From assembly GCA_012026655.1 (NCBI GenBank), contig JAAILG010000745.1:1-64000 (forward strand): a DNA stretch of 64,000 nucleotides, written 5' to 3'. Source of the stretch: Hydrolagus affinis (lineage: Eukaryota). Positions 341 through 60,630 of this stretch are shown one piece after another. Position numbers and translations under genes: made by a program. How positions within the stretch are numbered: position 1 is the stretch's first letter; every line of letters begins with the position of its first letter. Below the pieces are notes generated by a model that worked only from the letters and a program-made list of their open reading frames with translations, searched no databases and was not told the DNA's origin.

Positions 341-622
341 CTTAACTATTGGAATAGGTTATCAGTGAGAATGGTTTAAGCCATTTAGAAGTGAGTTAAC
401 CACAACTTGGAACTGTACTGGAGAGACCCAAGGTTGATGTGCTGAAAGGATCAGATCAAAAGGCCTAAAAGGTTTTTTTTCAACTCAACCTCAGTTATGA
501 TTCCTAGTTACAAAAGGCCAGAAAAAGTACAACAACAATCATTTGATATGGTGTCTTATCGTGCCATTGATATATCTCAAAACGCTTCACAGGATTTTTG
601 CTATAAAGTGTAGTGAATGTGT

Positions 623-824
623 GACAAAAACAGAAGTTGCTAGGGAAACTCAGCAGGTCAGGCAGCATCCATGGAGAAAGGAAAAAGAGTCAATGTTTCG
701 GGTCTACAACCCTTCGTCAGAACTGGGGCTTGTTCCTTTCTCCATGGATGCTGCCTGACCTACCGAGTTTCCCCAGCAACTTCTGTTTTTGTTTCAGATT
801 CCCAGCACTGTAGTATTTTGTGTT
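623..824 (-). mobile_element. Penelope-like element terminal (pseudo-LTR) fragment with inverted duplication
   Basis: 60-bp inverted arms at 624-683 and 733-792 (57/60 match), a hammerhead motif in the loop, and the flanking 12-bp direct repeat TAGTGAATGTGT at 611-622 and 825-836. Confidence 0.8.
688..724 (-). ncRNA. Minimal type I hammerhead ribozyme motif (Penelope-type), possibly inactive
   Basis: The minus strand reads AGUU-CUGACGA-A-GGGUU-GUA-GACCC-GAAA-CAUU-GACU. It has both core boxes (CUGANGA, GAAA), a 5-bp stem II and a 4-bp stem I. Stem III is reduced and reads ACAU rather than the palindromic ACGU. Confidence 0.7.
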
Positions 825-1395: not shown

Positions 1396-1588
1396 ATAAT
1401 AATAATTAATCTTACCCCTGGAAAAGCCTTCTGCTGATTGACTAACAACTGGGTTCCTACTTACTGCTAGGTAAACAGAGGCGTGTGGAGTAAGGAAACT
1501 TGCTCAATAATTTGCTCTGCCGGGAATGGAGCCCAGGTCTCTCGCTTGCGAGGCGAGCGTGCTAAACACTGAGCAACAGGACGCCACA
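1396..1588 (-). mobile_element. Young tRNA-SINE (family A), head plus CORE-like part, long variant
   Basis: The reverse complement reads GTGGCGTCCTGTTGCTCAGTGTTTAGCAC...CCTGGGCTCCATTCCCGG...GCAAGTTTCCTTACTCCACACGCCTCTGTTTACCTAGCAGTAAGTAGG. Confidence 0.9.
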
Positions 1589-8566: not shown

Positions 8567-9100
8567 GGAGTTCTGTAGATCAGTGGTTAGAGCACTCACC
8601 TTACAAGTGAAAGACCTGGGTTCAATTCCCGTCAGGGCAAAACCTTAGGCAAGTTTATAATAATATAATAATAATAATAATCCTTGCATTTGATATAGCG
8701 CTTTTCACATCTTATTGACGTCCCAAAGCGCTTCACGGAATATACTGTAAAGTGAATTGACTGTATATTTGTGGGCGAATCGCGGCAGCCAATTGCGCAC
8801 AGCAGTGTCCCACAAACAGTCGTGGATTGAAATGCCCAATTTTATTATTGTGGTTCTTTTGGAGGGATTATTATTAGGCATTTCCTTACTGCACACACCT
8901 AATAATCCCTCAAAAAAAATTGATCATTTCAATCCATGACTGTGGGACACTGCTCTGCGCAATTTGCTGCTGCATTTCGCCCACATATATACAGTCAATT
9001 CACTTTACAGTACATTCTGTGAAGCGCTTTGAGATGCCTAGAAGACGTGAAAAGCGCTATATCAAATGCAAGAATTTTTTGTATGTTTATTATTATTATT
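8567..9100 (+). mobile_element. SINE family A full copy, split by an inverted copy of the same family
   Basis: The head at 8567-8656 ends ...GGCAAGTTT and resumes TTTCCTTACT at 8881, continuing to the TTA tail. Confidence 0.9.
8657..8880 (-). mobile_element. 5'-truncated SINE family A copy nested in antisense
   Basis: (AAT)n-CCTTGCATTTGATATAGCGCTTTTCAC...GGAGGGATTATTATTAGGC is the reverse complement of the family 3' half. Confidence 0.92.
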
Positions 9101-60490: not shown

Positions 60491-60531
60491 TGAGTTCTGA
60501 CGAAAGGTCGTGGACCCGAAACATTGACTCA
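60491..60531 (+). ncRNA. Minimal type I hammerhead ribozyme motif (Penelope-type), possibly inactive
   Basis: UGAGUU-CUGACGA-A-AGGUC-GUG-GACCC-GAAA-CAUU-GACUCA has a 6-bp stem I, a 4-bp stem II closed by an A-C mismatch, and intact core boxes. Confidence 0.68.
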
Positions 60532-60630
60532 CTTTCCTTTCTCCATATATGCTGCCTGACCTGCTGAGTGTTCCAAGTGATTTCAGTTTCTCTTTTAGAT
60601 TTCCAGCATCTACAGTATATTGCGTTTTTG
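60492..60630 (+). mobile_element. Penelope-like terminal fragment (139 bp)
   Basis: Homologous to 623-824 (CTCCA..ATGCTGCCTGACCTGCTGAG...AGATTTCCAGCA). Flanked by a degenerate 15-bp duplication at 60477-60491 and 60631-60645. Confidence 0.82.

What the first reader, a model, noticed from the sequence alone, without database searches (positions are those of the whole stretch)
623..824. 202-bp mobile hairpin with a hammerhead ribozyme motif in its loop
Seen: two 60-bp inverted arms (624-683 and 733-792, 3 mismatches) enclose a 49-nt loop. On the minus strand the loop reads AGUU-CUGACGA-A-GGGUU-GUA-GACCC-GAAA-CAUU-GACU. The unit is bounded by a perfect 12-bp target duplication (TAGTGAATGTGT), so it inserted as one non-coding unit. 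Known: Penelope-like retroelements carry minimal type I hammerheads in their pseudo-LTRs and often form inverted terminal duplications. Inference: this is either a truncated, inverted PLE end or a member of a small non-autonomous, retrozyme-like family. Stem III reads ACAU rather than the self-complementary ACGU needed for dimeric cleavage, which could be CpG decay.
Basis: partly seen in the sequence, partly recalled or inferred. Interest (0 to 1): 0.7.

Follow-up and report, generated by a model that had tools for sequence, protein, structure and literature searches.

The report
Hairpin stub of a Penelope retrotransposon
This small DNA hairpin is a real but ordinary leftover: two truncated, back-to-back ends of a common Penelope-type jumping gene, whose self-cutting RNA motif is mutated in this copy, and the shared stopping point of many such stubs likely marks where the element's RNA begins.

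Summary
In detail: 60-bp arms with 3 mismatches, a 12-bp target duplication, and a minimal hammerhead motif on the minus strand. It is not a separate mobile family. A near full-length parent with RT and GIY-YIG frames has the same 3' end. Outer ends are shared genome-wide, inner junctions vary, and this junction is unique. Of 80 classified insertions, 44 are such pairs and 36 are solos. ACAU is CpG decay (ACGT 927, ACAT 161, ATGT 138), so this copy's ribozyme is predicted dead. One pattern I did not find in print: 49 of 124 arms stop at -132..-140, the 5' edge of the hammerhead, against 4 near its cleavage site. The stubs are likely run-off cDNAs to the RNA start, primed from both cut strands. 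This scan has noted the same pattern before in other genomes.

The parts
611..622 (.). Left copy of the target-site duplication (12 bp exact; 608-622 matches 822-836 at 14 of 15)
624..734 (-). Inverted, tail-less pLTR arm: element positions about -34 to -147, counted from the element's 3' end; holds the hammerhead
688..724 (-). Minimal type I hammerhead motif; predicted cut between 692 and 691; base 694 is a CpG-decay change from the family's majority state
720..726 (-). Initiator-like heptamer (YYANWYY, consensus recalled) whose A at 724 is position -137, the boundary at which family arms pile up; inferred RNA start
   Evidence: inference
733..792 (+). Direct pLTR arm, 5'-truncated at about -95 (3' of the hammerhead); shares 1-2 T of microhomology with the left arm at 733-734
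793..824 (+). 32-bp PLE tail, present on this arm only
   Evidence: definition in PMC8557442
825..836 (.). Right copy of the target-site duplication
60493..60628 (+). Second, more diverged (80%) solo copy: tail-bearing, starts at -137

Best explanation
The unit is a dead-end, 5'-truncated insertion of an endonuclease-positive Penelope-like retrotransposon, likely made in one event by reverse transcription primed from both cut strands of the target. Shown: the parent element, the layout (tail-less inverted arm, tail-bearing arm, one 12-15 bp duplication), variable inner junctions, and the pile-up of 5' ends near -137. Taken from PMC11167929 for another PLE: the protein cuts and extends both strands and starts at two internal RNA sites that bound the tail. 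Inferred: one strand primes at about -35 and the other at -1 on the transcript's 5' pLTR; both cDNAs run off at the RNA start (A -137) or stop earlier, and are joined head to head through short microhomology. The hammerhead is a passenger; uncut RNA is the likely template. This copy is slightly atypical: its left arm reaches -147, so its template extended at least 10 nt further 5'. Its hammerhead is predicted inactive because CpG decay broke the palindrome needed for dimeric helix III.
For: Parent L167: duplication, partial upstream pLTR, ORF, pLTR with hammerhead and tail, duplication. GIY-YIG passes the Pfam cut-off in L148; RVT_1 at E 1.5e-6 and 3.1e-6 in L140 and L142. C-x4-CxxC linker and CxxC inside the GIY-YIG. 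Sample of 81 insertions, 80 classified: 44 pairs, all with one tail-less and one tail-bearing arm, 20 tail solos, 16 tail-less solos; duplication of 9 bp or more in 35 of 44 pairs against 1 of 44 in a control. 49 of 124 arms, and 16 of 36 solos, end at -132..-140 (about 2.0 and 0.5 expected); 4 of 124 and 0 of 36 end within 3 nt of the cleavage site. Four pairs have a tail arm running 15-29 nt on into the leader, with duplications, and six chimeras join leader to an arm starting at -136..-141. Arms of one pair share variants: 17 against a shuffled mean of 5.5, maximum 13 (24 pairs). Read depth in a related organism falls several-fold across the same boundary.
Against: RVT_1 scores (28.6, 27.5 bits) are just under the curated cut-off of 29.6. 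No RNA start was mapped; the Initiator match is a short recalled consensus and the TATA-like stretch is weak. Arm ends come from BLAST and are uncertain by 1-3 nt. This copy's left arm overshoots the boundary (only 1 of 124 arms ends at -141..-160). One complex copy, L315, has a tail-bearing inverted arm and ends at +110. Duplications were found in only 9 of 20 tail solos and 6 of 16 tail-less solos. Shared variants could also reflect gene conversion or one subfamily being active at a time. The sample is the first 100 of 2065 hits, from the largest contigs.
Confidence: 0.8

Rival explanations
1. Same PLE origin, but the pile-up near -137 is a reverse-transcriptase stop, or an exonuclease-trimmed end protected by the folded or protein-bound hammerhead, not a transcription start.
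For: The boundary coincides exactly with the first base of stem I; ends are spread over about 9 nt with a shoulder at -126..-131.
Against: A copying enzyme meets the structure from its 3' side (-104..-101), where there is no peak; the rate drops back to background 5' of -140; the upstream stretch is pyrimidine-rich with little predicted structure.
Confidence: 0.25
2. A short non-autonomous hairpin master (MITE-like or retrozyme-like) moves as a unit, and the loop later suffers deletions.
For: Many pairs have both arms near -136; some loops show deletions between short direct repeats and a few junctions recur; arms of a pair share variants.
Against: Solos with duplications stop at the same boundary; arms range up to kilobases with the same outer ends; this junction is unique; duplications vary from 9 to 17 bp; only 1 same-strand pair of hammerhead cores within 1.5 kb, 955 bp apart, among the loci held (L001-L306; that scan missed the partial tandem L078).
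Confidence: 0.06
3. The boundary is a splice acceptor (CAG at -138..-136 after a pyrimidine tract), as in D. virilis Penelope, where the intron ends at helix I, and the stubs come from spliced RNA.
For: Sequence looks like an acceptor; PMC4209133 maps the D. virilis intron end to the 5' end of helix I.
Against: No shared upstream exon in the arms listed; 29 arms reach -136..-140 and so keep acceptor bases, against 4 that start at -135.
Confidence: 0.05
4. Hammerhead cleavage makes the template's 5' end, and this locus is a working ribozyme switch.
For: The arms prolong stem I in the predicted fold; the core is intact.
Against: No peak of ends at the cleavage site; the window's helix III hexamer self-pairs at +2.8 kcal/mol against -3.5 for the majority form; in the anole PLE, ribozyme mutants insert normally.
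Confidence: 0.04

Closest known systems
EN+ PLE insertions with an inverted 5'-truncated pLTR and one-sided tail (PMC8557442, passages; Adineta vaga Pen2a, PMC3846280, passages; D. virilis Penelope, PMC2377424, passages)
   Same: Head-to-head inverted copy, 30-40 bp tail on one end only, single target duplication, partial upstream pLTR in the parent.
   Different: Here the ORF is lost and only about 100-140 bp per arm remains; duplications are 12-15 bp rather than 8-10; 5' ends pile up at one place, which the passages I read do not report.
Minimal type I hammerheads of metazoan PLEs (PMC4209133; read abstract, results, discussion and the start of methods)
   Same: Short helix I, extra base between positions 9 and 10.1, G10.1-C11.1 pair, palindromic 15.2-16.2 in the family majority; opposite-strand pairs 100-700 bp apart are mentioned there.
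   Different: This copy has lost the palindrome by CpG decay; the parts I read do not list cartilaginous fishes; its supplement was not opened.
Poseidon_Ac of the green anole (PMC11167929; read main text and the start of methods)
   Same: Two internal start sites bounding the tail; both strands extended; no ends at the ribozyme cut site.
   Different: Different clade (this element has the extra Cys linker). That study saw no difference in start site between strands, whereas all 44 pairs here have one end of each kind.
Non-LTR retrozymes (PMC7229834, passages; bioRxiv 10.64898/2026.07.22.740005, parts 1-2 of 5 plus a term search)
   Same: Small, non-coding, type I hammerhead, PLE-related.
   Different: Retrozymes are head-to-tail tandem units with a hammerhead in each; this is head-to-head, with one damaged motif.

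Membership tests
EN+ Penelope-like element (parent and stub) | One ORF with RT and C-terminal GIY-YIG endonuclease linked to this 3' end | tested here: met
   GIY-YIG above cut-off (L148); RVT_1 E about 1e-6 but just under cut-off (L140, L142); all copies seen are interrupted
EN+ Penelope-like element (parent and stub) | pLTR formed by partial tandem | tested here: met
   L167 has -78..-1 upstream of the leader; 39 tail-to-leader junctions in the genome
EN+ Penelope-like element (parent and stub) | Inverted 5'-truncated copy, 30-40 bp tail on one end, variable target duplication | tested here: met
   44 of 44 pairs; duplications in 35 of 44
EN+ Penelope-like element (parent and stub) | CCHH motif with two Cys inside GIY-YIG | tested here: met
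   Seen by eye in L143; definition
Neptune/Nematis clades | CX2-5CxxC linker before the endonuclease | tested here: met
   C-x4-CxxC in L143 and L148; definition
Neptune/Nematis clades | Placement in an RT tree with named reference elements | not tested
   No named reference PLE proteins were held; the hits carry no clade names
Minimal type I hammerhead | Core CUGANGA / GAAA / NUH with helices I and II | tested here: met
   2913 matches of a core pattern against 1 in the control
Minimal type I hammerhead | Palindromic 15.2-16.2 for dimeric helix III | tested here: not met
   Not met in this copy; met in the family majority (927 against 161 and 138)
Minimal type I hammerhead | Compensatory changes in the helices | tested here: inconclusive
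   Only a one-sided U-G to C-G change between subfamilies, seen by eye; no formal pair count run
Minimal type I hammerhead | Self-cleavage | not testable with these tools
   Needs a bench assay
Non-LTR retrozyme | Head-to-tail tandem units each with a hammerhead | tested here: not met
   Window unit is head-to-head; 0 of 81 sampled insertions is such an array; definition
Non-LTR retrozyme | Abundant circular monomer RNA | not testable with these tools
   No suitable RNA library
MITE (DNA transposon derivative) | Terminal inverted repeats at both ends, fixed short duplication, uniform interior (definition recalled) | tested here: not met
   One-sided tail, 9-17 bp duplications, variable junctions

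The most novel reading that the evidence does not exclude
The hairpin stubs are a genomic record of how PLEs insert: one complex primes both cut strands from two different sites of the transcript's 5' pLTR, both cDNAs run off at an RNA start that coincides with the first base of the hammerhead, and run-off ends can jump to a new template position. The stubs would map the transcription start to a few bases and show that uncut RNA is the template in vivo.
Probability: 0.55. Interest if true: 0.5.

Novelty: new member of a known kind. Interest (0 to 1): 0.3.

Why it matters
As an element it is ordinary, and annotators should file such hairpins as PLE stubs rather than MITEs, microRNA precursors (Rfam's best, below-threshold hits) or retrozymes. 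The origin of PLE inverted structures is still called undefined in PMC8557442, and the roughly one thousand stubs here give countable end positions that make a two-strand, two-start-site model directly testable with an existing in vitro system.

Tried and rejected
Rfam found no hammerhead; its microRNA hits are generic hairpin matches below gathering score. The first sample (L002-L030) suggested that ACAU was typical of left arms; this was query bias and was rejected by genome-wide counts. Pfam gave nothing useful on four short broken frames. An empty-site test against paralogues of the host repeat gave only 1 adjacent hit besides the window itself, which is weak; no empty allele was seen among the joints shown. 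No RNA holder of the window stretch was listed. The RNA reads come from a related organism, mostly run on into unlike flanks, and the library cannot map RNA ends. Look-up of earlier scan notes by sequence gave nothing. Literature searches showed no paper on a pile-up of PLE 5' ends at the hammerhead or on such hairpins in cartilaginous fishes; Repbase, Dfam, subscription papers and all supplements were not seen and may hold this family. No host gene was identified in the window; I only listed frames of 130 aa or more and did not scan them.

Full report
Observation. The minus-strand motif at 688-724 has the hammerhead core and helices I and II, although Rfam does not score it. Contigs of a public run cross both outer junctions.

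Family. The genome (1.11 Gb) holds many copies: 40 of 1971 candidates were scored and nearly all cover the same outer ends. An alignment of 30 shows fixed outer ends, different duplications and different inner junctions. The window's junction occurs once with up to 1 mismatch. A 21-nt arm pattern has 2065 exact hits; scaling the sample below gives about 900 hairpins with an exact hit, a rough lower bound.

Parent. Longer copies continue 5' of the hammerhead into coding sequence. L167 is near full length: duplication, upstream pLTR piece (-78..-1), leader, ORF, pLTR with hammerhead and tail, duplication. Pfam finds GIY-YIG above cut-off in L148 and RVT_1 at E about 1e-6, just under cut-off, in L140 and L142; L143 gave no family. 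The C-x4-CxxC linker points to the Neptune or Nematis clades as defined in PMC8557442; I built no tree. The most identical named proteins among the 120 listed are from sharks and rays (58-64%), so the host is likely a cartilaginous fish. Positions below count from the 3' end of L167: C3 is -133, the cut lies between -105 and -104, tail-less ends lie near -35.

Anatomy in a sample not chosen by 5' structure. The first 100 of the 2065 hits are 81 insertions; 80 were classified (L200 fell under the identity filter). There are 44 head-to-head pairs, 20 tail-bearing solos and 16 tail-less solos. Every pair has one arm of each kind. Duplications of 9 bp or more, mostly 12-15, were found in 35 of 44 pairs (control 1 of 44), 9 of 20 and 6 of 16 solos (controls 0). 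This is the layout described for PLEs in PMC8557442 and PMC3846280 (passages). Junctions show short microhomology or fillers.

Breakpoints. 49 of 124 arms end at -132..-140, against about 2 expected from the rate outside -126..-140; for solos 16 of 36 against 0.5. Only 4 of 124 arms, and no solo, end within 3 nt of the cut site. By eye, 23 of 30 loci chosen by a core pattern, which includes a second subfamily, stop within about 10 nt 5' of C3 (some loci overlap earlier samples and two are duplicates of each other). Reads of a related organism drop several-fold across the same place. No shared exon lies upstream, and 29 arms reach -136..-140 against 4 at -135, which argues against a splice junction. 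A -137 sits in an Initiator-like heptamer (consensus recalled). Among 30 of 39 tail-to-leader junctions examined, four pairs run 15-29 nt into the leader and still have duplications, which shows that the template went on past the tail; six chimeras join leader of variable length to an arm starting at -136..-141. The window's own left arm reaches -147 and is an exception to the pile-up.

Ribozyme state. Exact 27-nt patterns give ACGT 927, ACAT 161, ATGT 138 and both transversions together 24: symmetric CpG decay from a palindromic majority. The window's hexamer self-pairs at +2.8 kcal/mol against -3.5. PMC4209133 reports that such motifs need dimers and cleave weakly. This copy is therefore predicted inactive; that is untested.

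Mechanism. Shown here: parentage, layout, asymmetry, pile-up. From PMC11167929: a PLE protein cuts and extends both strands, starts at two internal sites that bound the tail, and does not need ribozyme cleavage. Inferred: each arm is a cDNA primed from one cut strand, one from -35 and one from -1, running to the RNA start or stopping earlier, then joined. Arms of one pair share variants more than shuffled pairs do (17 against mean 5.5, maximum 13; 24 pairs), which fits a shared template but also conversion or timing. I put the PLE-stub identity at about 0.9 and the run-off step at about 0.55-0.6.

Comparison and novelty. It works like, and is, a PLE insertion; it fails the tests for retrozyme and MITE. 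I found no paper on the pile-up in eight searches, but repeat databases and supplements were not seen. I had noted the pile-up and the Initiator-like site before looking up earlier scan notes; 372 notes hold my search words, and several of the 8 shown give the same reading for other genomes. They are not independent support. One of them also sees junctions at the cut site; this genome does not show that. Verdict: real, a new member of a known kind, interest 0.3.

Noticed in passing
window 60493-60628: Older solo copy of the same family, tail-bearing, starting at -137, inside a host repeat.
   Followed up: partly
window about 540-622 and 837-880; L198, L225, L257, L270, L273: The insertion sits in a host SINE-like repeat (label recalled); 5 of 55 tail-less ends lie next to one motif of such a repeat. 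Possible target preference; not corrected for how abundant the repeat is.
   Followed up: partly
L320-L330: Eleven copies of one tail-leader-arm chimera with over 1 kb of shared flanks (85-93% alike); amplified with host DNA, not tandem within the four loci checked, hammerhead 5' core missing.
   Followed up: partly
L307 (=L078), L317: Complex insertions with a tail-bearing inverted arm, a leader and a final tail-less arm: outer ends are again one tail-bearing and one tail-less.
   Followed up: partly
L167 3' pLTR, -85..-1: Predicted nested stems whose 3' strands share a CAGCA motif, one upstream of each of the two 3' ends; possible start-site signal.
   Followed up: no
L009, L010, L024: Loops look like arms starting at -136/-137 with stem II deleted between short direct repeats.
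   Followed up: no
L092 and L093 (G000:C7797): The two ends of one contig are near-identical reverse complements (L131/L132, 99.97%); recent inverted duplication or assembly artefact.
   Followed up: no
window 1512-1575 (-), 8657-9099: tRNA-like SINE head (Rfam tRNA 30.4 bits), one of many related repeats in the window; 8657-9099 is another inverted pair.
   Followed up: no
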